Below are positions 5,733 to 28,900 of a stretch of 30,566 bases of DNA, one piece after another. The DNA is taken from positions 1 through 30,566 of IMG/VR virus record IMGVR_UViG_2609459826_000004; one strand, given 5' to 3'. Under the pieces are notes generated by a model. It was not told the DNA's origin. It did no database searches and saw only the letters and a list, made by a program, of their open reading frames with translations. Positions within the stretch are counted from its first letter, which is position 1, and each line of letters opens with the position of its first letter. The translations under genes were made by a program, and so were the position numbers. Source of the DNA: a virus (lineage: Duplodnaviria; Heunggongvirae; Uroviricota; Caudoviricetes).

Positions 5733-5872
5733 GTGAGATCCTCATTTTTGGGTGTTAGAATCCCCGGACCATTGATAGCGCCCATTGGGTTAACTTTGGT
5801 TTTAATGTTGTTTCCGGTGTAACTTTGGTCGGTGAGGCCGGACATGGCGGGCCCACTTCGGTGGGCTTTCGC

Positions 5873-16598: not shown

Positions 16599-17096
16599 AT
16601 GAAACTGGAATTAACCAACGACCAGCATCAATGGGTAGACCAGTGGCTCCAGTTGTGGGGCGCATGGTGCCAGACCGGCAAGATTGATAAAGCGATGATC
16701 AACATGATTGCCAGATTCATGGCTACCGTCGAGCCCCAGCAAGCATCACGGCCGGTATGTAGTGATGATGACGGAATGCTCATTGATGCTGTCATTCGCC
16801 ACTACCTGAAGAATGTGGATGAAAATGCCTGGCGGGTTATCTTCGCCTACTATGTCTGCAACTCCAGCGAGATCCGAATTGCATCATGGCAGCATGCAGT
16901 AAGTAAGCCTCGCCTTATGAAGACGCGTGGCGGCAATCAGTACAAACACCCAAGCATCTCGACAATCCGTAGAGAGGTGAAGCAAATCATCAATGCTTCA
17001 TTGTTCTGTTTATACCAACCGCTTCAAAATGCGTTTAACGATCGCGAAAATGTGAGGAAAATTGCAAATAAATCACACAACGTGCTTGCAATTTAA
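16599..17096 (+). CDS. Q: Late-gene antiterminator Q (Q-type family)
   Basis: 165 aa. Motifs WLQLWGAW...SRPVCSDDDGMLID...FAYYV resemble Q-type antiterminators of lambdoid prophages. Sits immediately upstream of a terminator/tRNA/lysis cluster. Confidence 0.75.
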   Translation: MKLELTNDQHQWVDQWLQLWGAWCQTGKIDKAMINMIARFMATVEPQQASRPVCSDDDGMLIDAVIRHYLKNVDENAWRVIFAYYVCNSSEIRIASWQHAVSKPRLMKTRGGNQYKHPSISTIRREVKQIINASLFCLYQPLQNAFNDRENVRKIANKSHNVLAI

Positions 17097-17161
17097 TGAA
17101 CAAATGAGCAAACTAATTCGTATATGTTGCCATTGTTGTGTGTGACATGAATGAATACCAA

Positions 17162-17190
17162 GCCTCGCCATCGTGCGGGGCTTTTTATTT
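17162..17190 (+). terminator. Intrinsic terminator downstream of Q (tR'-like)
   Basis: Hairpin GCCTCGC / GCGGGGC (7 bp, one G-U pair, loop CATCGT) followed by TTTTTATTT. Confidence 0.55.
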
Positions 17191-17264
17191 GCCTGTAGCT
17201 CAGAGGAAAGAGCAACCGCCTTCTAAGCGGTTGGTCGCTGGTTCGAATCCAGCCAGGCGAGCCA
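17189..17264 (+). tRNA. tRNA-Arg (anticodon UCU)
   Basis: Hand-folded cloverleaf: acceptor TTGCCTG/CAGGCGA, D-arm GCTC/GAGC, anticodon stem ACCGC/GCGGT with loop CTTCTAA (anticodon TCT), 5-nt variable loop, T-arm GCTGG-TTCGAAT-CCAGC, discriminator G and encoded CCA. Closely parallels E. coli argU architecture. Confidence 0.8.
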
Positions 17265-17318
17265 AACCCAGCCAGGGTATTTACGGCCAGAGAGCCGACA
17301 TTGCCTTACCCTCACATT

Positions 17319-17346
17319 GCCAGCCTGTCGCTGGCTTCTTTATTTT
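17319..17346 (+). terminator. Intrinsic terminator downstream of the tRNA
   Basis: Hairpin GCCAGC / GCTGGC (loop CTGTC) followed by TTCTTTATTTT. Confidence 0.5.
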
Positions 17347-17425
17347 CAGGCTCCGGGAACCATCATCGACATGCCTTCTTGTTAAATCGTCCCGAGGGCC
17401 TGAACCAACTACACACGGAATAAAT

Positions 17426-17827
17426 ATGTCTGAGACCTTCACTATCGTAGGCGTTGGTCTTACATCGTCATCAGTCGGTGTAACCTTTGCCACGCTGTTT
17501 CCGGAGGCGACTCCAGCAGTGATGCTCGGTTCACTCGCCGGAACGGCGCTATACGTTCTGACCTCAGATCCCCATCAACTCTGGAAGCAGGCTATCTTTG
17601 CGCTGATATCGTTTATCAGTGGCGTGTTCTTCTCCGTCCCCATGGCGAAAATCATGGCCGGAATCATCAACACGCCGTTAAGCCTGATGAAGCCACCGGC
17701 CAGCATTGAGGTATCGCCCGCTGTCGGTGCAATTGTCACTGCTTCCATTTCCGTGGCAGTCCTGCTGCGTATTCTCCGCAAATCCAAAAGCGGGAAGATG
17801 CCGGGGCTGGGGGAGGAAGATAAATGA
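17426..17827 (+). CDS. Putative holin (multi-TM membrane protein)
   Basis: Start at internal ATG 17426, because the longer track ORF runs through the tRNA. 133 aa with several hydrophobic segments and a charged C-terminal tail (RKSKSGKMPGLGEEDK). First gene of the lysis cassette. Confidence 0.6.
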   Translation: MSETFTIVGVGLTSSSVGVTFATLFPEATPAVMLGSLAGTALYVLTSDPHQLWKQAIFALISFISGVFFSVPMAKIMAGIINTPLSLMKPPASIEVSPAVGAIVTASISVAVLLRILRKSKSGKMPGLGEEDK

Positions 17828-18101: not shown

Positions 18102-18644
18102 ATGACCAAAGACGATATCTTTAACACCATTCTCGGCAAAGAGGGTGGTTATGTTGATCACCCGAACGATAAGGGCGGCCCAACGAACTGGGGAATTACT
18201 CAGGCAACTGCCCGCGCGCATGGTTATACCGGTGATATGCGAAACCTTACACGTGAGCAGGCTCTGGCGATCCTTGAGTCTGATTACTGGTATGGCCCGC
18301 GCTTTGACCAGGTGGCGGAAGTATCACCTTCCATTGCCGCCGAGCTTTGTGATACCGGTGTGAACATGGGGCCATCGGTGCAGGTTAAATGGTTCCAGCG
18401 CTGGCTGAACGTTTTCAATAACCAGCAGCAGTTCTATCCAGATCTGATCACCGACGGGCAAATCGGCCCACGTAGTATCAGCGCGCTAAAGTCCTACCTA
18501 GCGAAACGCGGAGCCGAAGGCGAAGGCGTATTGCTCCGAGCCCTGAACTGCAGCCAGGGCCAGCGATACCTCGAGCTGGCAGAGCAGCGCCCGGCTAACG
18601 AGTCATTCGCGTATGGCTGGATCCGGGAACGCGTAAGCCTATGA
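18102..18644 (+). CDS. Endolysin, GH108-type N-acetylmuramidase with C-terminal peptidoglycan-binding region
   Basis: Start at internal ATG 18102. N-terminal motif IFNTILGKEGGYVDHPNDKGGPTNWGIT is characteristic of glycoside hydrolase family 108 phage lysins. Lies between the holins and the spanins. Confidence 0.8.
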   Translation: MTKDDIFNTILGKEGGYVDHPNDKGGPTNWGITQATARAHGYTGDMRNLTREQALAILESDYWYGPRFDQVAEVSPSIAAELCDTGVNMGPSVQVKWFQRWLNVFNNQQQFYPDLITDGQIGPRSISALKSYLAKRGAEGEGVLLRALNCSQGQRYLELAEQRPANESFAYGWIRERVSL

Positions 18645-18913
18645 CCAAACTGAAAGCCATCCTGGCGTTTATCATCACTGCTGTGTTGGTGGTTCTGGGC
18701 GCTTTTGGCCTCGGCAGCATGCGTGGACGGGAGAAGGCCGAAACCAAAGCCGATAAGCAGCGAACCGACGAGAACGCCGCAGCCACCAAAGCAGCTGCAG
18801 AACGACGCGTTGAAGTAACCAAGGAGGCCAGCAATGTTCAGCAGACAGTTAGCCATATGCCTGATGACGATGTTGATCGTGAGCTGCGCGCAAACTGGAC
18901 CCGCAAAGGTTGA
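18641..18913 (+). CDS. Rz: i-spanin (Rz-like)
   Basis: 90 aa with N-terminal TM helix (LKAILAFIITAVLVVLGAFGL) and charged coiled-coil remainder; ATGA-coupled to the endolysin. Confidence 0.7.
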   Translation: MTKLKAILAFIITAVLVVLGAFGLGSMRGREKAETKADKQRTDENAAATKAAAERRVEVTKEASNVQQTVSHMPDDDVDRELRANWTRKG

Positions 18914-19079
18914 GGTAATCGACACCGGCTGCGACTGGGTCAACGTCATTCGCCTCACTGAGCACGACATCGAAGTGATGGATCGCCAGACGAAGAAAGA
19001 TGTGCTGGCACATAACAAATCGGTGCAGGCGAACTGCCAACCGAGTGAATACCGGGCCTTACAAACGCGGCCTGAGTGA
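18834..19079 (+). CDS. Rz1: o-spanin (Rz1-like lipoprotein)
   Basis: 81 aa. Lipoprotein signal with lipobox IVSC; starts within the 3' end of Rz in another frame (overlapped architecture). Confidence 0.7.
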   Translation: MFSRQLAICLMTMLIVSCAQTGPAKVEVIDTGCDWVNVIRLTEHDIEVMDRQTKKDVLAHNKSVQANCQPSEYRALQTRPE

Positions 19080-19110
19080 AACAGAAACAATAAAGCGAGG
19101 TGCTTTCCCC

Positions 19111-19290
19111 ATGAAAAAAGAAGACCGTGGTTTTATCTCGGTTACTAACTCAATCAGCGAAGTAAAAAACCTCTTCCTGGGAAATGAAATCCCGCAAGAA
19201 GGTGAGGTGCTTGAACTGGTGGTTGTCAAAAGCGAAACCACCGATGACTCATGTGCATTGGTGCTTAAGCTGCGTTCAGTTCAAAAATAA
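19111..19290 (+). CDS. Small hypothetical protein (59 aa), first ORF of the cargo island
   Basis: Start at internal ATG 19111 with GAGG upstream; no signal peptide; lies in the AT-richer segment. Confidence 0.35.
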   Translation: MKKEDRGFISVTNSISEVKNLFLGNEIPQEGEVLELVVVKSETTDDSCALVLKLRSVQK

Positions 19291-19402
19291 GACGAACTGA
19301 TTGACAAATTGAGTATTTCACGTGTGAATTGATGTAACTCATCGATTACTCTGGTGTATGAATTCATTATGAATTTCCACTCATCAGTATCGGAGAATAT
19401 CG

Positions 19403-20143
19403 ATGCATCAACACATAGCAAACGCCACGTTTCAGGTCATCGCAGGTGACTCAAGTGGCAGTGGTTTTAGCTTCATCCGTGAAGATTTAGTTGTCACTAA
19501 TTACCATGTTATAGAGTCATGCTTTAATCTAGAAACCAGAAGTCAAACCCATAGCATCATCCTGAAAACGGAAGCTAATGAGCAAATTGCAGCTGGGATT
19601 GTCTACTTTGACCACGGTAATGATTTTGTCATCATGAAACTGCTTTCAGCACTGCCCACAGGTAGAGTTGTTCTTCAGCCTTCCGTTGGTTTTTCACCCA
19701 CCAGAGGCAAAAAAATTATCTTTGCCGGTTATCCACACGGAATACCGCAGTTGCTGACAAATGAAGCAATTATCTCAGCACCTATGGAGTTAGGCAGATT
19801 CGCAATTGATGGTATGGTCAATGGTGGTAATTCTGGCGGGCCAATTATAGATCGAGCCTCTGGCGAACTGGTGGGTGTCGTCACTCGGCGTAGATATCTT
19901 ATGGGCGATCAAGCTGATGCTTTCAGTGAGGAGATTGAAAATTTGCGCCAATATCTTGCTGCAGCAAGCCAACATGGAAGTGTAGCAATAATGGGTGTCA
20001 ATTTCGGCCAGATGGCAGATATGTTCGGTAGATCGCTACAGATAGTTTCAGATATGATGTTGCTTAACGCTAATTCTGGCATCGGAATAGGATTCTCAAT
20101 GCAGCCTATCATTGACGCCCTTAGCACCATCCCAACAGAATAA
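19403..20143 (+). CDS. Trypsin/HtrA-like (S1 family) serine protease, predicted cytoplasmic, no PDZ domain
   Basis: 246 aa. Catalytic triad in canonical order and spacing: His35 (TNYHV), Asp74 (NDFVIMKL), Ser144 (GNSGGP). No N-terminal signal peptide or TM segment; C-terminal extension of about 95 aa of unknown function. GGAGA RBS 6 nt upstream. Lower GC than the flanking phage genes by eye. Confidence 0.8.
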   Translation: MHQHIANATFQVIAGDSSGSGFSFIREDLVVTNYHVIESCFNLETRSQTHSIILKTEANEQIAAGIVYFDHGNDFVIMKLLSALPTGRVVLQPSVGFSPTRGKKIIFAGYPHGIPQLLTNEAIISAPMELGRFAIDGMVNGGNSGGPIIDRASGELVGVVTRRRYLMGDQADAFSEEIENLRQYLAAASQHGSVAIMGVNFGQMADMFGRSLQIVSDMMLLNANSGIGIGFSMQPIIDALSTIPTE

Positions 20144-20171
20144 ACGTTCATCATGTGAGCGGTCACAAGAT

Positions 20172-20195
20172 AAAGCCTCGCATCAACGAGGCTTT
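20172..20195. terminator. Hairpin between convergent genes (candidate bidirectional terminator)
   Basis: Perfect 9-bp stem AAAGCCTCG / CGAGGCTTT with loop CATCAA, between the protease stop and the stop of the convergent minus-strand ORF. Confidence 0.45.
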
Positions 20196-20222
20196 AGGAC
20201 AAATTCAGGGGAATTCATATCC

Positions 20223-20657
20223 TTAATCTTTTATTACTTCAAATTCTATCGTATCCCCCAAGGACTCCGTCATTACAGCGCACTTTATGACTGTAGTGCG
20301 CGAATTGGCTTCATTATCTACGAGTGCCTTTCGGAATATCGCTGAAAACTTGCTGATCACGTCATTTCTTTGATCTCTAAAATTCGATCCTTCAATACGG
20401 ATCAAGCCTTTGATGGCCGTTTCTAAGTCTTCTAGCTTTTGCCAATAAGTGAATGGTCTTGCTGCATTCTCGCTAAAAGTCTCCAGTTCACTCAATTTCT
20501 TAAGCTTGCCGATGTCGACGCGAACAGCATCGGATATTTCTTTCGCTCTATGAGTATTCCCAACTTTGTTTACAGAGTATGTAAGTAAAAAGTATTCATG
20601 CAGCATCATTTGTTCCATTAATGAGATTGATACTAAAAAATTGGGACAAAAAGTCAT
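20223..20657 (-). CDS. Hypothetical protein convergent with the protease gene
   Basis: 144-aa ORF in AT-rich DNA, where long chance ORFs are unlikely. No clear SD; alternative starts at Met14 or Met17. No domain recognised. Confidence 0.5.
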   Translation of the reverse strand: MTFCPNFLVSISLMEQMMLHEYFLLTYSVNKVGNTHRAKEISDAVRVDIGKLKKLSELETFSENAARPFTYWQKLEDLETAIKGLIRIEGSNFRDQRNDVISKFSAIFRKALVDNEANSRTTVIKCAVMTESLGDTIEFEVIKD

Positions 20658-20735
20658 TATTCAATAGTAAGTTAAAAATTTTTCCAGCCATTTAAATCGG
20701 CGGATCGCTAAAGTCTTATCTATAGGAGCAGTATC

Positions 20736-22822: not shown

Positions 22823-24292
22823 GTGAGCGAACAAGATAACGGCCTCAAACTGGCTGTGAACAACCTCGCCACTGAAATGAGGCGAGCGAATTACCTGAAT
22901 GCCATCGGCATTGGGGGCGGCAACACGAAGCGCCCGACGCTCTATCAGGAGTTTGGCTACCCGCGCACGATCACGTTCAACGACTTCTACAACATGTACC
23001 GCCGCAATGCCGCCGGGTTCGCTGTGGTGCACCGCCTGCTGGATGGGTGCTGGCAGGATTACCCGGTCATCATCGACGGTGACGAGACGGAAGAAGCGAA
23101 AGAGACCAATCAGTGGGAAAAGAAAGTCACCCGCTTCATGAAAAAGCTGTGGTCGAAGGTTAAAGACGCCGATCGCCGCAATATGGTTGGACGTTACTCC
23201 GCTCTGTTGTTGCAGGTGAAAGACAATAACCCCTGGAGCGAGCCAGTCGACATCAAGCTGGTGAAATCCCTCGGTGAGTCTGCGCTGGTGAAGCTGATCC
23301 CGGTATGGGAGCCGCAACTAACCGTCGCTGACTGGGATAACGACCGCCTCTCGTCCACCTTCGGCCAGCCGTTGATGTTCAACTTCAACGAACAGCCGGT
23401 GGGCGATGACCAATTTGTCGGGCCGATGCGAGGTGAGCCTGTGCACCCAAGCCGGGTGATCCTTTTCTGTGAAGGTTCAGAGGATGAAAATGTCCTGTCT
23501 GGCATCCCGCTGCTTGAGGCCGGCTATAACAAAGGACTGGACCTCGAAAAAGTATCAGGTGGCGGAGCCGAGGGTTTCCTGAAGAACGCCAGCCGCCAGA
23601 TCGCGGTTGAGTTCAGCAAAGATACGGACATGGCCACACTTGCCAGCCAGGCAAAGGCAGCTGGTTATGACGATCTCGGCCAGGCGATGGGCGACAAGGT
23701 CAACAAACTGAACCGCGGGACCGACGCCGCCGCTGTCATGCAGGCCGGGCAGATGCGGGTGCTCAGCGTGACGCCGGGTGACCCGGGGCCGACGTGGGAG
23801 GTTACTGCGAACGAACTGGCCGCCTCCGTGCAGATCCCATTCACCATCCTGTTTGGGCAACAGACCGGACGCCTGGCGAGCGACGAGGACAAAACCGACT
23901 GGGCCATTCGGCGCAACACGCGACGTAACACTTTCCTGACCGACCGAATCACCGCGCTACTCGAGCGCTTCTGGACGCTGGGCATCATTGACCCGCCAAC
24001 AAATGGCGAAGTCACTATCCAGTGGAGCGATCTGCTGGCGCCCGGCGAGAAAGAGAAAATCGAGAACATGTCCAAGCTGGCTGATGTCGTCCAGAAAACA
24101 ACTGGCATGTATGGCGGTGAAGCGCCGTTGACTATCAACGAACTGCGACAGGTAATCGGGCTTGAGCCATTACCTGAGCCCAAAGAACCGCCGAACCCGG
24201 ACGATAAGGTGACAACCGATGATCCACTGGCCGATGACACCCGAACAGAAGGAGAAGGTGGGCCTGCCGATAGTTCCGCGCAGCAAGGTTGA
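22823..24292 (+). CDS. Portal protein
   Basis: 489-aa ORF with GTG start and AAGGAG RBS, directly after terL; acidic C-terminal tail. Confidence 0.75.
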   Translation: MSEQDNGLKLAVNNLATEMRRANYLNAIGIGGGNTKRPTLYQEFGYPRTITFNDFYNMYRRNAAGFAVVHRLLDGCWQDYPVIIDGDETEEAKETNQWEKKVTRFMKKLWSKVKDADRRNMVGRYSALLLQVKDNNPWSEPVDIKLVKSLGESALVKLIPVWEPQLTVADWDNDRLSSTFGQPLMFNFNEQPVGDDQFVGPMRGEPVHPSRVILFCEGSEDENVLSGIPLLEAGYNKGLDLEKVSGGGAEGFLKNASRQIAVEFSKDTDMATLASQAKAAGYDDLGQAMGDKVNKLNRGTDAAAVMQAGQMRVLSVTPGDPGPTWEVTANELAASVQIPFTILFGQQTGRLASDEDKTDWAIRRNTRRNTFLTDRITALLERFWTLGIIDPPTNGEVTIQWSDLLAPGEKEKIENMSKLADVVQKTTGMYGGEAPLTINELRQVIGLEPLPEPKEPPNPDDKVTTDDPLADDTRTEGEGGPADSSAQQG

Positions 24293-25217
24293 CCCGACGC
24301 GATCGGCAAAACAGGTCAGCGCGATGTTCCGGGATATCGAAGAGCGTTATCTCGGCATTAAGCGCGCCATTAAAGTCCTGTTCGACCAGCGCCTGACCGG
24401 GCGAGAGCGAGATGTTAACAGCCACAACTGGCACTTCCTGTGTCACGTCAACGGTGAAGATCAGAGGCTCTACCAGGTCAACGCTGGGAAGTTCATCTAC
24501 GACATGACGCCGCAGGAACTGGCGGAGCTGCTGGAGGCTGTGCAGGGCATCCTGGATGACTATCTGCTGGACGGTGGGGAGAACAATCAGTGGGCGATGG
24601 ATTACATCGTCGCTGAGGCGCAGCGCGGCACGCTGGAGGCGTTTAACAACCTATCGCAGCAGTCGCAGGTATACGCCAACCAGACGACGCTACAGCAGCT
24701 TTTAAGCAGCCCCGGTTATCAAAACCAGATTGCCTCCGCCAGGCTGACAACGTTCAGCGACTGGAAGGCTATTAGCGATGCCGCCCGGGCAGACCTGACA
24801 GGCATTATCGCCGACGCGGTGGCACGTGGGGTTAACCCGAGGGAAACGGCCAGCGTTATCAGTAAGCGCCTTGACGTGTCGATGAGCCGGGCAAAGTCGA
24901 TTGCCCAGACCGAACAGGTCGGCGCGCTGCGGCGGGCGCAATGGAACGAAACGGACTGGGCAGCTGACCGGCTGGGGCTGAATACCGGTCTTCTGTGGCT
25001 GTCAGCGCTCAAGCCAACGACGCGCAGCTGGCACGCCAGCCGTCATGGCAAGGTTTACACAACCGAAGAGGTGCGAGACTTCTACGCTGTAAACGGGAAC
25101 CGGTACAACTGCTACTGCAGCCAGATCCCAGTGCTGCTCAGTGACGACGGCAGCATTTTCAATGAAGGGCTGGGAGATAAGCTGGCGAAAGAACGCAAGC
25201 AGTGGCAATCTGGATGA
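24219..25217 (+). CDS. Head morphogenesis protein (Mu F-like minor head protein)
   Basis: 332 aa. C-terminal motif ...SWHASRHGKVYTTEEV...YNCYCS typical of Mu-F/SPP1-gp7-like proteins. Start uncertain: the first in-frame ATG overlaps the portal by 74 nt; an internal ATG near 24324 is an alternative. Confidence 0.7.
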   Translation: MIHWPMTPEQKEKVGLPIVPRSKVDPTRSAKQVSAMFRDIEERYLGIKRAIKVLFDQRLTGRERDVNSHNWHFLCHVNGEDQRLYQVNAGKFIYDMTPQELAELLEAVQGILDDYLLDGGENNQWAMDYIVAEAQRGTLEAFNNLSQQSQVYANQTTLQQLLSSPGYQNQIASARLTTFSDWKAISDAARADLTGIIADAVARGVNPRETASVISKRLDVSMSRAKSIAQTEQVGALRRAQWNETDWAADRLGLNTGLLWLSALKPTTRSWHASRHGKVYTTEEVRDFYAVNGNRYNCYCSQIPVLLSDDGSIFNEGLGDKLAKERKQWQSG

Positions 25218-25242
25218 GGAGTACACATAACGGAGTAACCTC

Positions 25243-25668
25243 ATGGAAAATCAAGTAGAAAAAGAAATTTCAGAAGCTCAATCACATGGTCTTGTTGATG
25301 CGTCAATCTTGCACTTAGTTCTCTGCGCAAATTGCGGTTTGGGGGTTGATGTTACGATCGTTACTGGGGGGCAAGTTATTGCCGGAGAGTTAGTCTCGGG
25401 TAAGATTTTCGCTGAGACAACCGCAGCTAACTATCGTAATGCTAATGCTGCAGAAGAGTACCGAGAGTTGCTTGCGAAATTCTTCGACGATTTAGCCCTT
25501 GATTACAACACAGAGAATGGCAATAAAATCCCGCTAAATTATTTACATATCAAAAACCCGGCATATCTAAAAGGTGATGGTAGCTGGTTTACAATTACTG
25601 ACTCAATCATCAGAGTTGACATAAGCAAGGTTGACGGATTTTCCCCTGGGAAGACCAAGACGATTTAA
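25243..25668 (+). CDS. Hypothetical moron protein inserted in the head module
   Basis: 141-aa ORF with GGAG RBS in an AT-richer segment between the MuF-like gene and the scaffold-like gene; followed by its own intrinsic terminator. No domain recognised. Confidence 0.6.
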   Translation: MENQVEKEISEAQSHGLVDASILHLVLCANCGLGVDVTIVTGGQVIAGELVSGKIFAETTAANYRNANAAEEYRELLAKFFDDLALDYNTENGNKIPLNYLHIKNPAYLKGDGSWFTITDSIIRVDISKVDGFSPGKTKTI

Positions 25669-25676
25669 ATTAACAA

Positions 25677-25698
25677 GGTCGCTTCAGCGGCCTTTTTT
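25677..25698 (+). terminator. Intrinsic terminator after the head-module moron
   Basis: Hairpin GGTCGC / GCGGCC (one G-U pair, loop TTCA) followed by a T-run of 6. Confidence 0.55.
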
Positions 25699-25729
25699 AT
25701 TGCCTGAAATCTACAAATGAGGACGCAAC

Positions 25730-27091
25730 GTGAAGCTATCCAGCATCCACGTTAAATCCCTCGCCATCAACGCCTCCAACATCTCAACGACAACCATCAA
25801 CGGGCAAGAACACTACGTCATTCGTGGTGCGGTTCCGATCGTCGATGACATCGTAATGAACGGTGGGCTCTATCCGGCTGAGGAGATTAACAACAGCTAC
25901 CAGACGATGGAAGGCAAGCTGATGCCGCTGCCGCACCCGATGGTAGATGGCAAGTATGTCAGCGCCAACGATCCGCGCGCTATCAACGCTTATCACGTTG
26001 GAGCCTGGGCTCAGAACGTCAGCAAATCCGGCGATCAGGTCGTCATGGACGTTTACATCAACAAGGCTGTTGCTGAGACGAAACCTGATGGCAAGCGCCT
26101 GATTAACCGCCTCGACGAGATGATCGCCGGCACCAACACCGACCCGATTCACCTCTCTACCGGCCTTCTCACCAACAAAGAGAAGAAGTCGGGCGAGTCG
26201 AAGGAGAAAAAGTACACCTGGATCGCCCGCAACATGCAGTTCGACCACATTGCCATCCTGCTGGATGAACCGGGAGCCGGAACGCCGGAAGAGGGCGTCG
26301 GCATGTTCGTGAACGCTGACGGTCAGGAAGGTGAGGTCGAAACTGCCAGCCTCATCGACGCGGCAAACAGCCTCAAAGACGGGCTGGTGAATAAGGTGAA
26401 GTTCTTCCTCACCCACAACTCCGACGCCTCCTTCGACGAAATCTACCAGATGCTGCGAGAGGCCATCCGCGCGCCGTCCGGCAGTGATGTTTATCGCTAT
26501 GTGGTGACCGTCTGGCCGGACAAATTCATTTACGAAGAGGGGTCGAAACTCTTCCAGCAAAAATACCTCATCGACGACAGCACAGTGACGCTGGTCGGCG
26601 ATGCAGTCGAAGTCGTGCGCAAACCCACTGAGTACGAAGTCAAAACCAACGGAGAACAAAACCCGATGAAACAGAAGATGATCGCCGCGCTCAATGCCGC
26701 AGGCGTAACAACCGAGGGGCTGACCGACGATCAGGTCTGGGATGCCTACAACCAGCAGATGCAGAAGAAAGCCGGTGGCGGCGATCCGGCTGGCGCTCAG
26801 GTGAATACTGATGCCATTACCGCAGCGGTAAACGCTGCTCTCACTCCGCTGACCGACAAAATCAGCCACCTGGAAACGCAGCTGCAGGCCAATGCGGAAA
26901 AAGATATCACCGCGAAGCGCCAGGCGGTGAAAGCCAAGTTCCCGTTCATGACCGAAGCGGCGATCAACTCGCTGGCTGGCGACGCGCTGAACGATATGTT
27001 CTCGCAGTGCCAGACCAGCACCGGGCTGAACCCTGCATTCCAGGGTAACGGCGCACAAAGCGAAATCCTTACCATGGAGGCACCTGAATAA
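25730..27091 (+). CDS. Putative head scaffolding / prohead maturation protein
   Basis: 453 aa, GTG start with TGAGGA RBS; C-terminal half coiled-coil-like (scaffold-like). Positioned between the MuF-like and capsid genes. Family assignment (DUF2213-like) is a recollection only. Confidence 0.5.
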   Translation: MKLSSIHVKSLAINASNISTTTINGQEHYVIRGAVPIVDDIVMNGGLYPAEEINNSYQTMEGKLMPLPHPMVDGKYVSANDPRAINAYHVGAWAQNVSKSGDQVVMDVYINKAVAETKPDGKRLINRLDEMIAGTNTDPIHLSTGLLTNKEKKSGESKEKKYTWIARNMQFDHIAILLDEPGAGTPEEGVGMFVNADGQEGEVETASLIDAANSLKDGLVNKVKFFLTHNSDASFDEIYQMLREAIRAPSGSDVYRYVVTVWPDKFIYEEGSKLFQQKYLIDDSTVTLVGDAVEVVRKPTEYEVKTNGEQNPMKQKMIAALNAAGVTTEGLTDDQVWDAYNQQMQKKAGGGDPAGAQVNTDAITAAVNAALTPLTDKISHLETQLQANAEKDITAKRQAVKAKFPFMTEAAINSLAGDALNDMFSQCQTSTGLNPAFQGNGAQSEILTMEAPE

Positions 27092-27552: not shown

Positions 27553-28604
27553 GCATGATCGTTTTCAACAAAAAGCTGGTTACCGAACATAACCAGATTA
27601 AGCAGGCGTGGAATCAGCTGCTGATGCAGCGTGAAGCGTTCAACATCAACCAGAACACCATCACCGCCCAGTACAACGGCGCGCTGGAAGTTAACCAGGC
27701 CGCGCTGATTTCCAAAGACTACTGGCGCGAAGTGGACAACATCACCACCCGCGTTTTCCGCAATGACGAAGGCAACGGTCTGCTGGATGACCTGCTTGGG
27801 CTCGGTACGCCGATCTCTATCGGCAAAACCGCCGCTCTGTACCGCGTTTCCAGCGACGCCGGCAAGGTACATCGCACCCTGACTGGCCATGTGCCGGAAG
27901 AGCTGGATAAAGTCATCTACGACGAAGCAGGCGACCCGATCCCAATCTTCAACACCGGCTACAGCCGTGAATGGCGTGAATGGAACGGCATGCAGTCGGA
28001 AAACCTCGACGCGATGGCCGACGACCAGGAAGCGCACGTTGCAGCCATCCGTGAAGACATGGCTGACTACATGCTGTCTGGTGACGCGAAGGTGAAGGTG
28101 AAAGGCTACGTCGGCGCAGGTATCACCAACCACGCCAACACCAATCAGGTGGATCTGAGCGCGTCCGGTCTGAACATCGACCTGACCACCGCCAACCCTG
28201 ACGAGATGGTCGCGTTCTTCACTGGCCCGTTCGCTAAGCTCCTGGACGATAACTACGTGCAGGAGAAGGTGAAGGTGTGGGTGTCGCCTGACATCATGCG
28301 CAACATGAGCAAACCGTATTCCTCCGCTGCCGGCTTCAAAGAAGGTACAGTGCTGGAGTACATCCTGCGCTACGGCCGCATCGAGTCTGTTAACCAGACC
28401 TTTAAGCTGACCGGTAACCACTTCATCGCGTACGTGCGCAACTCGCAGTACATCAAGACGCGTATCGCCGCGCCGGTGGGTACCTTCATGATCCCGCGCC
28501 AGAATCCGTTCGACAACTACAACACTCTGGTATGGAGTGCGGTAGGTCTGCAGATCAAACGCGATTTCAACGGTCGCTCGAAAGTGTTCAACGCACAGGG
28601 TTAA
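27549..28604 (+). CDS. Major capsid protein
   Basis: 351-aa ORF after scaffold-like genes, followed by a strong intrinsic terminator, as is common after major capsid genes. No motif-level match claimed. Confidence 0.7.
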   Translation: MSMIVFNKKLVTEHNQIKQAWNQLLMQREAFNINQNTITAQYNGALEVNQAALISKDYWREVDNITTRVFRNDEGNGLLDDLLGLGTPISIGKTAALYRVSSDAGKVHRTLTGHVPEELDKVIYDEAGDPIPIFNTGYSREWREWNGMQSENLDAMADDQEAHVAAIREDMADYMLSGDAKVKVKGYVGAGITNHANTNQVDLSASGLNIDLTTANPDEMVAFFTGPFAKLLDDNYVQEKVKVWVSPDIMRNMSKPYSSAAGFKEGTVLEYILRYGRIESVNQTFKLTGNHFIAYVRNSQYIKTRIAAPVGTFMIPRQNPFDNYNTLVWSAVGLQIKRDFNGRSKVFNAQG

Positions 28605-28625
28605 GGGGCTTCGGCCCCTTTTCTT
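28603..28625 (+). terminator. Intrinsic terminator after the major capsid gene
   Basis: GGGGC-TTCG-GCCCC hairpin (extended by flanking A/T pairs) followed by TTTTCTT. Confidence 0.65.
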
Positions 28626-28636
28626 CAGGAGAGAAC

Positions 28637-28900
28637 ATGCAAAAGTTAAGAATCGAAAAATCGGGCTGCTGGGGCACGATTGATGGTGTATTCCAGCAAC
28701 TGCCTGTAGGTCATGAGTTCATTGCGGAATCCGTTCCGCCAGCGTTCGCAGGCCGGGTATCAGTCGTCGGTGAAGTCGGTGAGCAGGAGCTTGAGGTCGC
28801 CACGCCGGGCGATACTCCTGCAGAGCAGGCAGAGCAGGCAGAGCAGGCAGAGCAGGCAGAGCAGGCAGAAACCTCCTCTAAATCGAAGAAGGCGAAATAA
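28637..28900 (+). CDS. Hypothetical head-associated protein with (AEQ)5 repeat
   Basis: Start at internal ATG 28637 with AGGAGA RBS; 87 aa; C-terminus has PAEQAEQAEQAEQAEQAETSSKSKKAK encoded by a perfect 9-bp tandem repeat. Confidence 0.55.
   Translation: MQKLRIEKSGCWGTIDGVFQQLPVGHEFIAESVPPAFAGRVSVVGEVGEQELEVATPGDTPAEQAEQAEQAEQAEQAETSSKSKKAK
28820..28870. repeat. Perfect 9-bp tandem repeat (GCAGAGCAG) x5 plus partial copy, in frame
   Basis: gcagagcag repeated five times from 28820 to 28864, then gcagaa; encodes (AEQ)n. Confidence 0.8.

What the first reader, a model, noticed from the sequence alone, without database searches (positions are those of the whole stretch)
25218..25705. Single-gene moron with its own terminator inserted inside the head-morphogenesis operon
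A 141-aa ORF (25243-25668) sits between the MuF-like gene and the scaffold-like gene. It has a GGAG RBS, lower GC than its neighbours by eye, and is followed by an intrinsic terminator (GGTCGC-TTCA-GCGGCC plus T6, 25677-25698). The protein has no signal peptide and no domain I recognise. Small cargo genes embedded in the structural operon are where phages often carry anti-defence or host-modulating factors, so this is a candidate accessory or anti-defence gene.
Basis: partly seen in the sequence, partly recalled or inferred. Interest (0 to 1): 0.6.

Follow-up and report, generated by a model that had tools for sequence, protein, structure and literature searches.

The report
GvpU-like cargo gene in prophage head operon
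A small, AT-rich gene wedged between two head-assembly genes of an E. coli-type prophage is a real, dispensable cargo gene: it encodes a relative of the gas-vesicle clustering protein GvpU and sits in a slot where related phages carry dozens of other cargo genes, but nothing yet shows it blocks bacterial defences.

Summary
ORF 25243-25668, its GGAG ribosome-binding site, the GC dip (0.42 against 0.56-0.59; GC3 0.39 against about 0.73) and the hairpin plus T6 are all present.

The gene is functional (dN/dS 0.07-0.19). It encodes a GvpU-like protein (Pfam PF28078; NCBIfam GvpU at 32.5 bits, below the cut-off). A confident model (pLDDT 90) shows an Sm/LSm beta-barrel interrupted by a helical hairpin.

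It is not head machinery:
- Of 78 related MuF-to-DUF2213 junctions, 6 are empty, 72 hold at least 30 unrelated AT-rich cargo families, and only 2 hold a GvpU-like gene.
- Identifiable cargo in this slot includes Lit, Rap1a/Tai immunity and HNH genes.
- More distant GvpU-like genes sit in the lysis-to-terminase slot of unrelated prophages, and beside chromosomal mfd.

The terminator is real but not private to this gene. The same hairpin follows other forward-facing cargo genes in the slot and more than 60 unrelated ORF families in at least 120 viral contigs.

The window copy has no promoter, so it should be made with the Q-antiterminated late transcript.

The "moron" reading is supported. The "anti-defence" reading is untested and unsupported by any homology. 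The context leans slightly towards lysogen-protective cargo. This is a new member of a known kind, of moderate interest.

The parts
16599..17096 (+). Q-like late antiterminator gene of the prophage. Context: it explains how a strong terminator can be tolerated inside the late operon.
   Evidence: phrog_943 'anti-termination protein Q-like', E 4.5e-70. It is followed by holins, endolysin, an Rz-like spanin, TerS, TerL, portal and MuF, all on the + strand.
24219..25217 (+). MuF-like minor head / head-morphogenesis gene. This is the conserved left flank of the cargo slot.
   Evidence: Pfam Phage_Mu_F 2.8e-10 and phrog_758 1e-142. It is 76-98% identical in all related loci, whatever the cargo.
25218..25729 (.). 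512-nt AT-rich cargo slot between the MuF stop codon and the DUF2213 start codon.
   Evidence: GC 0.422 against 0.595 (left) and 0.557 (right). In relatives the same interval is 15-17 nt when empty and up to about 1300 nt when filled with unrelated cargo.
25232..25235 (+). Shine-Dalgarno GGAG, 7 nt upstream of the ATG.
   Evidence: Read directly from the sequence. The block ACGGAGTAACCTCATG is conserved in L004 and L006, with variants in L007 and L008.
25243..25668 (+). Gene for a 141-aa, acidic (pI 4.8), cytoplasmic GvpU-like protein with an Sm fold.
25675..25700 (+). Intrinsic terminator: an 8-bp stem (one G-U pair), a 4-nt loop and TTTTTTAT. It is a portable element shared by the forward-facing cargo genes.
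   Evidence: dG -11.6. The same hairpin, with different loops, follows unrelated cargo in L002, L003, L018, L021 and L026. Different stem sequences with the same structure occur in L020, L023 and L025. It is absent from the empty site and from reverse-strand cargo. It also follows the GvpU-like gene of a Rahnella prophage in a different slot, and occurs in at least 120 viral contigs.
25719..27091 (+). RBS (GAGGA, 25719-25723) and DUF2213 prohead protease/scaffold-like gene (GTG at 25730). This is the conserved right flank of the slot.
   Evidence: Pfam DUF2213 5.5e-5 and phrog_760 1e-178. When no second cassette is present, the gene starts exactly 55 nt after the start of the terminator motif in all loci.

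Best explanation
SHOWN. The ORF is a real gene under purifying selection. It encodes a small, acidic, cytoplasmic protein of the GvpU-like family (PF28078). Its core is an Sm/LSm-type beta-barrel (helix 20-30, strands 35-51 and 100-135) interrupted by a well-ordered helical hairpin (53-87).

It is not part of the head-assembly machinery. It is one of more than 30 unrelated AT-rich cargo genes that alternately occupy a hypervariable slot between the MuF gene and the DUF2213 gene in a lineage of lambdoid prophages of Enterobacterales. More distant family members occupy the lysis-to-terminase slot of unrelated prophages, and a chromosomal spot next to mfd.

INFERRED, expression. The window copy has a ribosome-binding site but only 25 nt of upstream spacer and no sigma-70-like promoter. 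It is therefore transcribed with the late operon by Q-modified RNA polymerase, which reads through the hairpin-T6 terminator. That terminator otherwise insulates the downstream head genes. Together with the conserved MuF 3' end, it also supplies the homology for swapping cargo cassettes.

INFERRED, mechanism. By analogy with GvpU (which binds the C-terminal tail of a shell protein and self-associates) and with Sm proteins (oligomeric rings that bind RNA or peptides), the protein most likely acts without catalysis, as a self-associating binder or sequestering factor for a protein tail or a nucleic-acid or nucleotide ligand.

INFERRED, role. Its role is most likely in conflict between phage, host and competitors. 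Which side it serves is unresolved, with a slight lean towards protecting the cell that carries it.
For: Gene reality: dN/dS is 0.07-0.19 among 9 homologues.

Family and fold:
- PF28078 is precomputed on homologues 66-94% identical.
- The NCBIfam GvpU match covers profile positions 14-116 of 117.
- All 81 sampled relatives match the GvpU model, and 314 50%-identity clusters were found by exhaustive profile search.

Dispensable cargo:
- KO-TP1 and Kp4856-1 share 92-95% identical DUF2213, decoration and capsid proteins but lack the gene.
- E. coli strain 53 has an empty 17-nt junction.
- Of 78 junctions, 6 are empty, 72 hold at least 30 cargo families and 2 hold a GvpU-like gene.
- Every slot insert of more than 250 nt has GC 0.36-0.47, against 0.55-0.61 for the flanks.
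- The gene occurs with two different capsid modules (capsid protein 95% or about 25% identical), and its own divergence is uncoupled from that of MuF.

Second slot: the upstream neighbours of the second clade are mostly Rz spanins or endolysins, and the downstream neighbours are TerS, HNH or glycosyltransferase genes. Chromosomal copies lie next to mfd.

Identifiable cargo in the slot: Lit (PADLOC 7.5e-42), Rap1a immunity (Pfam 4e-18; 14 of 78 loci) and HNH_3.

Expression: no promoter-like site lies upstream, and a Q antiterminator is present in the window.

Shared terminator.

GvpU biology: bioRxiv 10.1101/2023.06.01.543273.
Against: There are no functional data of any kind.

Similarity to bona fide GvpU is weak: 32.5 bits against a 70-bit cut-off. 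The segment that is an intrinsically disordered, phase-separating linker in GvpU is predicted here to be an ordered helical hairpin, so the GvpU analogy may not carry over.

Inference from location is weak, because most cargo families in the slot are themselves uncharacterised.

The missing promoter departs from the classical moron definition, and it makes expression in the lysogen, which a protective role needs, uncertain for this copy.

Oligomeric state and ligand could not be examined.
Confidence: 0.6

Rival explanations
1. Lysogen-protective cargo. The protein defends the carrying cell, by superinfection exclusion or abortive infection, or as an orphan immunity protein that neutralises an incoming cytoplasmic toxin by binding it.
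For: The only cargo in the same slot with recognisable function is protective: Lit and Rap1a/Tai immunity, the commonest occupant. Second-clade family members carry a conserved promoter-like motif plus a terminator, i.e. the classical moron layout. Five stand-alone chromosomal copies lie next to mfd, with a conserved promoter-like TGGTCA-16-TAAACT. Precedents for late-operon morons that protect lysogens are JBD26 Tab and HK97 gp15 (PMC10884400).
Against: There is no PADLOC hit. The window copy has no promoter, so expression in the lysogen is doubtful. No toxin or effector partner lies nearby.
Confidence: 0.3
2. Anti-defence factor. The protein is made during lytic growth and blocks a host immune system, for example by sequestering a signalling nucleotide or by masking a late-expressed trigger such as capsid, portal or terminase proteins. 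It could also be packaged into the head.
For: It is co-transcribed with head genes, so it would appear at the same time as the late proteins that trigger Lit-, Avs- or CapRel-type systems (inference). It is small, acidic and probably oligomeric, like known sponge proteins (PMC12265669). The anti-CRISPR genes of Pseudomonas Mu-like phages lie in a low-GC variable region, RGP G, next to the head genes (PMC4378225). From my own knowledge (Bondy-Denomy 2013), that locus lies just upstream of the protease/scaffold gene.
Against: There is no sequence or fold similarity to any solved or viral predicted anti-defence protein. There is no early promoter and no Aca-like regulator. Family members occur outside phages, next to mfd. 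No known sponge has an Sm fold.
Confidence: 0.17
3. Hfq/Sm-like RNA-binding regulator. It forms a ring that binds phage late mRNA or host small RNAs and modulates translation or RNA stability.
For: The best structural matches are all RNA-binding Sm, LSm or Hfq proteins. Polar residues that are near-invariant across the family sit on the barrel strands: H102 and R124, plus K104, which is invariant only among the closer relatives. A Gordonia phage 'RNA binding protein' is a weak BFVD match.
Against: Sequence identity to Sm proteins is only 10-20%. The protein is acidic (pI 4.8). GvpU itself is a protein-binding factor, not an RNA-binding one. Sm motif residues were not mapped.
Confidence: 0.1
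4. Head-assembly accessory or virion protein: a chaperone, decoration protein or internal protein specific to this head module.
For: It lies inside the head operon directly after MuF and is co-transcribed with it. GvpU binds the surface of a protein shell.
Against: It is absent from phages with 92-95% identical head proteins, and empty junctions exist. It occurs with two unrelated capsid modules, and also in phages with HK97-type heads at another locus. Its composition is foreign. Its place in the slot can be taken by Lit or Rap1a.
Confidence: 0.06

Closest known systems
GvpU, gas-vesicle accessory protein of Priestia (Bacillus) megaterium (NCBIfam NF041667; bioRxiv 10.1101/2023.06.01.543273)
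   Same: Detectable homology over almost the whole profile (positions 14-116 of 117, E 8.8e-8). The size is similar, and both have a barrel split by an inserted segment rich in acidic and aromatic residues.
   Different: The score is well below the family cut-off (32.5 against 70 bits). There is no gvp gene cluster and the hosts make no gas vesicles. The insert is predicted to be an ordered helical hairpin, not a disordered linker. The gene is carried by prophages as mobile cargo.
Sm / LSm / Hfq fold proteins
   Different: About 45 residues of helical hairpin are inserted between strands 2 and 3. Identity is only 10-20%. The protein is acidic. Ring formation and RNA binding are untested.
Phage morons in late operons (Juhala et al. 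2000; HK97 gp15; Pseudomonas JBD26 Tab, PMC10884400)
   Same: A single extra gene lies between essential late genes, present in some relatives and absent from others, with atypical GC and followed by a terminator.
   Different: The window copy has no recognisable promoter of its own. Tab and gp15 are unrelated in sequence.
Accessory-gene hot spots: the anti-CRISPR region RGP G of Pseudomonas Mu-like phages (PMC4378225) and the P2/P4 defence hot spots (PMC9122126)
   Same: A fixed genomic position between conserved genes holds low-GC, highly variable cargo linked to phage-host conflict.
   Different: This is a different phage lineage and a different junction (MuF to DUF2213). The cargo identified here is protective or selfish (Lit, Rap1a/Tai, HNH), not anti-CRISPR. 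The slot also has a conserved terminator-RBS block at its right edge, whereas PMC4378225 reports that no common flanking sequence was found for its variable regions.

Membership tests
GvpU (NCBIfam NF041667, equivalog) | Whole-protein HMM score at or above the curated cut-off of 70 bits | tested here: not met
   32.5 bits, E 8.8e-8, profile positions 14-116 of 117.
GvpU (NCBIfam NF041667, equivalog) | Encoded in a gas-vesicle (gvp) gene cluster with a GvpA/GvpB shell protein | tested here: not met
   Most neighbours examined have phage assignments. A tblastn of a GvpA sequence recalled from memory against the window found nothing at E up to 10.
GvpU (NCBIfam NF041667, equivalog) | Intrinsically disordered linker between the structured halves, driving phase separation | tested here: inconclusive
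   The AF2 model built on 81 sequences shows residues 53-87 as two helices with pLDDT 93-98. The composition is acidic plus aromatic (8 D/E and 6 F/Y/W in 47 residues). Phase behaviour cannot be predicted here.
GvpU (NCBIfam NF041667, equivalog) | [quoted passage not shown] | not testable with these tools
   This needs biochemistry. It is known for GvpU only from bioRxiv 10.1101/2023.06.01.543273.
Pfam PF28078 'GvpU-like' | Match to the Pfam model | tested here: met
   The test is indirect. The local Pfam copy lacks this model (no hit), but all 7 homologue clusters at 66-94% identity carry a precomputed PF28078 hit, which is named 'GvpU-like'. The window protein is a member of the cluster whose representative is P0001.
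Sm/LSm fold superfamily | N-terminal helix plus a five-stranded, strongly bent antiparallel sheet | tested here: met
Sm/LSm fold superfamily | Ring-shaped homo-oligomer that binds RNA | not testable with these tools
   Only monomer prediction was available, and no binding assay can be run.
Moron (Juhala et al. 2000) | Present in some phages and absent from otherwise closely related ones | tested here: met
   (2 of 78 junctions carry it; 6 are empty). There is no DNA match in 5,426 complete E. coli genomes.
Moron (Juhala et al. 2000) | Base composition different from the flanking phage genes | tested here: met
   GC 0.418 and GC3 0.394, against about 0.57 and 0.73. The gene is in the lowest 2.4% of windows.
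Moron (Juhala et al. 2000) | Followed by a factor-independent terminator | tested here: met
   The hairpin is conserved with loop variation and alternative stems.
Moron (Juhala et al. 2000) | Own promoter that allows expression from the repressed prophage | tested here: not met
   Only 25 nt separate the MuF stop codon from the ATG. No sigma-70-like site lies upstream in 24900-25242, even at a relaxed threshold. Second-clade relatives do have a conserved promoter-like motif.
Known anti-defence families (Acr, Acb, Tad, Gad, Ocr and similar) | Sequence or fold similarity to a characterised member | tested here: not met
Known anti-phage defence systems (PADLOC-DB v2) | Match to a defence-protein model | tested here: not met
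   No hit at E up to 1.

The most novel reading that the evidence does not exclude
Prophage-borne GvpU-like proteins are an uncharacterised family of conflict proteins that work as GvpU does. They would coat a protein assembly by gripping an exposed tail and, through self-association, cluster or sequester it. The target could be a rival phage's capsids, the phage's own progeny particles, or a filament-forming immune effector. This would be a physical, non-enzymatic mode of defence or counter-defence.
Probability: 0.12. Interest if true: 0.75.

Novelty: new member of a known kind. Interest (0 to 1): 0.42.

Why it matters
If the reading is right, three things follow.

(1) A protein family so far known only from gas-vesicle biology has a second, unexplored life as mobile cargo of enterobacterial prophages. 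Named relatives come from E. coli, Klebsiella, Citrobacter, Salmonella, Enterobacter, Yersinia, Serratia, Rahnella and Cronobacter.

(2) The MuF-to-DUF2213 junction is a compact, easily recognised hot spot. It has conserved flanks and a shared terminator and holds at least 30 cargo families, among them Lit and a T6SS immunity protein. That makes it a practical place to mine for new defence, immunity or anti-defence genes.

(3) The identical terminator behind unrelated cargo genes suggests how such cassettes are exchanged.

None of this changes current concepts. It adds a candidate family and a mining site.

Tried and rejected
- **Family searches.** The local Pfam-A gave no real hit for the protein (only DUF272 at 14.9 bits, rejected). 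PADLOC gave none.
- **GenBank phages.** tblastn of the window protein, the Rahnella homologue and the Cronobacter homologue against 50,697 phage records found no match.
- **E. coli genomes.** blastn of the locus against 5,426 complete E. coli genomes found no match, although the exact protein is deposited from E. coli draft assemblies.
- **Solved structures.** PDB sequence and profile searches returned only chance hits.
- **Fold libraries.** Foldseek against BFVD gave only weak small-barrel hits. afdb50 was not available.
- **Locus retrieval.** The search for related loci failed with the 81-sequence alignment, which was too diverse. It was repeated with narrower alignments.
- **Cluster look-ups.** Ten distant representatives were anonymous metagenome singletons.
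- **Literature.** Searches for PF28078 and for 'GvpU-like' found no papers. A search for Sm-like anti-defence or sponge proteins found none.
- **Promoter.** A promoter for the window copy was sought in the MuF 3' end and the spacer and not found. The one promoter-like site inside the ORF (25502-25529) was dismissed as chance, since fewer sites were found than expected from shuffles.
- **Structural role.** This was considered and rejected on the presence/absence and module-mixing evidence.
- **1147-aa neighbour.** A large neighbour of the chromosomal copies was checked as a possible defence partner. Read by eye, it is Mfd, a housekeeping protein.

Full report
**1. The observation**

The window is a lambdoid prophage. 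On the + strand the order is NinG (15661), a Q-like antiterminator (16599-17096), tRNA-Arg, two holins, endolysin and an Rz-like spanin (18641-18913). Then come an AT-rich island (about 19000-20700), TerS (20736), TerL, portal, MuF (24219-25217), the ORF in question, a DUF2213 protease/scaffold-like gene (25730-27091), a decoration protein and a DUF6260 major capsid protein.

- The ORF at 25243-25668 (141 aa) exists.
- GGAG sits at 25232-25235, 7 nt before the ATG.
- Gene GC is 0.418 and GC3 0.394, against 0.587/0.733 for MuF and 0.562/0.727 for DUF2213. Only 2.4% of same-sized windows are as AT-rich.
- The hairpin AAGGTCGC-TTCA-GCGGCCTT plus T6 (25675-25698) is the best terminator-like site between 19000 and 30566, with dG about -11.6 kcal/mol.
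- No ORF of 40 aa or more lies on the opposite strand inside the gene.

**2. The gene is real and belongs to a recognisable family**

A word-indexed search found only 7 close clusters (66-94% identity), all carrying a precomputed Pfam PF28078 hit. That family is labelled 'GvpU-like'. The local Pfam copy lacks this model. NCBIfam matches the GvpU model over positions 14-116 of 117, at E 8.8e-8 and 32.5 bits, below the 70-bit cut-off. PHROGs gives phrog_14356, of unknown function.

An exhaustive profile search found 314 clusters (at 50% identity) with E up to 1e-3. All 81 that I sampled also match the GvpU model. Named relatives come from E. coli, Klebsiella, Citrobacter, Salmonella, Enterobacter, Rahnella, Yersinia, Serratia and Cronobacter. 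They are annotated 'hypothetical protein', or once 'gas vesicle protein'.

Pairwise dN/dS among nine homologues is 0.07-0.19 wherever dS is not saturated, so the protein is under purifying selection.

**3. Fold**

With an 8-sequence alignment AlphaFold gave pLDDT 72.6. With 81 sequences it gave pLDDT 90.2 and pTM 0.79. The model has these elements:
- a disordered acidic N-terminus (residues 1-19);
- a helix (20-30);
- two strands (35-51);
- a helical hairpin (53-87);
- three more strands (100-135).

The protein is acidic (pI 4.8). Its hydrophobic stretch is modelled as barrel strands, so I see no transmembrane segment.

Columns that are invariant or nearly invariant across the 81-sequence alignment are D19, T38, G43, G48, H102, R124, G132 and G136.

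**4. It is cargo, not head machinery**

tblastn of the window's late proteins against related loci shows that MuF is 76-90% identical everywhere. The downstream head module, by contrast, comes in two types: DUF2213 at 92% or about 50% identity, and the capsid protein at 95% or about 25%.
- Klebsiella phages KO-TP1 and Kp4856-1 share the window's head type but lack the gene. They carry other small ORFs in its place.
- Most loci that do have a GvpU-like gene carry the other head type.
- Divergence of the GvpU-like gene is uncoupled from that of MuF. In L012, for example, MuF is 90% identical but the GvpU-like protein only 54%.

In complete E. coli genomes, 17 prophages have this MuF gene. In the 11 that I inspected, the junction contains one of the following:
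- nothing, a 17-nt gap (strain 53);
- a Lit-family exclusion protease (PADLOC 7.5e-42);
- a reverse-strand Rap1a/Tai immunity gene (Pfam 4e-18);
- hypothetical ORFs of 63 to 237 aa.

An unbiased sample of the 78 closest MuF-to-DUF2213 junctions in IMG/VR gives 6 empty junctions and 72 occupied by at least 30 unrelated families. Rap1a/Tai-like genes are the commonest (14 loci). GvpU-like genes occupy 2. In the loci examined, every slot insert of more than 250 nt has GC 0.36-0.47, against 0.55-0.61 for the flanks.

**5. The family is also cargo elsewhere**

A more distant clade (about 30-35% identical; Yersinia, Citrobacter, Serratia) was recovered in 24 viral and 12 metagenomic loci. Other distant members were found in Rahnella, Cronobacter and a further prophage.
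- Their upstream neighbours are mostly Rz-like spanins or endolysins.
- Their downstream neighbours are terminase small subunits, HNH endonucleases or glycosyltransferase-like morons.
- This is the classical lysis-to-terminase moron slot, here in phages with unrelated head genes (Peptidase_S78 or Clp protease with HK97-type capsids).
- In L162 and L163 the downstream TerS is nearly identical, by eye, to the window's TerS.
- Five loci are chromosomal and lie next to mfd.

**6. The terminator is real but shared**

The same hairpin and tail, AAGGTCGC-N4-GCGGCC-TTTTTTATTG, followed by about 30 nt and the DUF2213 ribosome-binding site, ends unrelated forward-facing cargo genes in L002, L003, L018, L021 and L026. 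Variants with different stem sequences but the same structure occur in L020 and L023 (CCCGC/GCGGG) and in L025 (GGTCGCC/GGCGACC). The empty site and the reverse-strand cargo lack it.

It also follows the GvpU-like gene of the Rahnella prophage in a different slot. An exact-motif scan found it in at least 120 viral contigs, after more than 60 unrelated ORF families. Even the closest MuF relatives (92-98% identical) share only this terminator block with the window's slot.

I infer two things from this. The hairpin is a genuine, selected terminator. And, together with the conserved MuF 3' end, it provides the homology on which cassettes are exchanged.

**7. Expression**

Only 25 nt separate the MuF stop codon from the ATG. 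No sigma-70-like site lies upstream, even at a relaxed threshold.

By contrast, second-clade copies carry a conserved promoter-like motif in their 50-150-nt upstream spacers: TTCACT followed by TATCCT or TATCTT, or TGGTCA-16-TAAACT in the chromosomal copies.

The window copy should therefore be made as part of the late transcript. That transcript is driven by Q-modified polymerase, and the Q gene is present. By established lambdoid biology, Q-modified polymerase reads through intrinsic terminators. This step is inferred, not shown.

**8. What it does**

Nothing here shows a function. [quoted passage not shown] Sm proteins are oligomeric binders of RNA or peptides.

The most economical mechanism is a non-enzymatic, self-associating binder or sequestering factor. 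Three points of context suggest a role in conflict:
- the hot spot also carries Lit, Rap1a/Tai and HNH genes;
- stand-alone chromosomal copies exist;
- the second clade has a promoter-plus-terminator layout.

Together these lean slightly towards protecting the carrying cell (confidence about 0.3). Anti-defence gets about 0.17. It fits the late co-expression with head proteins, and it has a positional precedent in the anti-CRISPR region of Pseudomonas Mu-like phages (PMC4378225). But no homology supports it. RNA regulation (about 0.1) and a structural role (about 0.06) are less likely.

**9. Comparison with known families, and novelty**

The protein fails membership of GvpU proper: its score is below the cut-off, there is no gvp cluster, and no GvpA is present. 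It is a member of the broader PF28078 family and of the Sm-fold superfamily.

As a genetic element it meets three of the four classical moron criteria. The one it lacks is its own promoter.

No paper in the library mentions GvpU-like proteins in phages.

My verdict is a new member of a known kind: phage accessory cargo in a hot spot. It is of moderate interest, mainly as a candidate family and as a convenient, terminator-marked site for mining.

Noticed in passing
window 25675-25700; L002-L148: The terminator AGGTCGC-N4-GCGGCC-T6-AT is a portable element. The exact motif occurs in at least 120 IMG/VR contigs, directly after more than 60 unrelated, mostly small ORF families and in several different genomic contexts (for example 65 nt upstream of a distantly related portal gene). 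It may mark cassette boundaries and serve as a recombination linker.
   Followed up: partly
window 19000-20700: There is a second AT-rich island (GC 0.40-0.46) between the Rz-like spanin and TerS. It holds a 96-aa ORF, a 246-aa trypsin-like serine protease (Pfam Trypsin_2 1.4e-17; PADLOC RT-Protease_XI protease region 3e-14 and a weak Avs1b N-terminal match) and a reverse-strand 144-aa ORF (phrog_36011). This is the slot where the second clade of GvpU-like genes sits in other prophages, so it is a likely defence-type moron island.
   Followed up: partly
L019, L024 and 14 of 78 loci in L185-L264 (MuF-to-DUF2213 slot): The commonest occupant of the slot is a reverse-strand gene of 114-122 aa with a signal peptide, from the Rap1a/Tai (T6SS amidase-effector immunity) family. 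Prophages appear to spread orphan T6SS immunity genes through this head-operon slot.
   Followed up: partly
L020 4060-4914 (E. coli M10 prophage): A Lit-family phage-exclusion protease (PADLOC Lit 7.5e-42, Peptidase_U49) occupies the same slot. It has a TATAAT-containing spacer upstream and a variant of the shared terminator downstream.
   Followed up: partly
L152, L155-L161, L164, L166 (about 35-70 nt upstream of the second-clade GvpU-like genes); L176-L180: A conserved promoter-like motif travels with the gene: TTCACT followed by TATCCT or TATCTT in the prophage copies, and TGGTCA-16-TAAACT in the chromosomal copies next to mfd. It is absent from the window's clade.
   Followed up: partly
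L176-L180 (metagenome contigs): GvpU-like genes occur as stand-alone chromosomal genes convergent with mfd. They sit in a variable spot whose other occupants differ between contigs: a 186-aa ORF, what looks by eye like a SymE-type small ORF, and sensor kinase or GGDEF-type genes.
   Followed up: partly
L004/L005 8485-8667, L008 2729-2902, L025 3996-4178: A second small cassette, an ORF of 57-60 aa with a weak DUF7279 match, can sit between the shared terminator and the DUF2213 gene, after different first cargo genes. The slot can therefore hold tandem cassettes.
   Followed up: no
window 5774-5871 (+): Rfam reports an isrB Hfq-binding small RNA at 38.2 bits (gathering score 35), in the early or left part of the prophage.
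   Followed up: no
window 17189-17264 (+): A tRNA-Arg (anticodon TCT) gene lies just downstream of the Q antiterminator gene and upstream of the holins, inside the 5' part of a mechanically called ORF (17138-17827).
   Followed up: no
window 28532-28900 (+): An ORF overlapping the end of the capsid gene and lying downstream of it encodes a run of five AEQ repeats, (AEQ)5, followed by a lysine-rich tail. It may be a short repeat-containing head-associated protein or a frame artefact.
   Followed up: no
L013 6474-8518; L015 9760-11789; L167/L168: Several GvpU-like genes in the lysis-to-terminase slot are directly followed by a 485-aa glycosyltransferase-like gene (phrog_1579). In L013 and L015 a gene of about 200 aa follows that one (matching the glucosyltransferase family phrog_854 in L013). 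This is a recurring pairing of morons.
   Followed up: no
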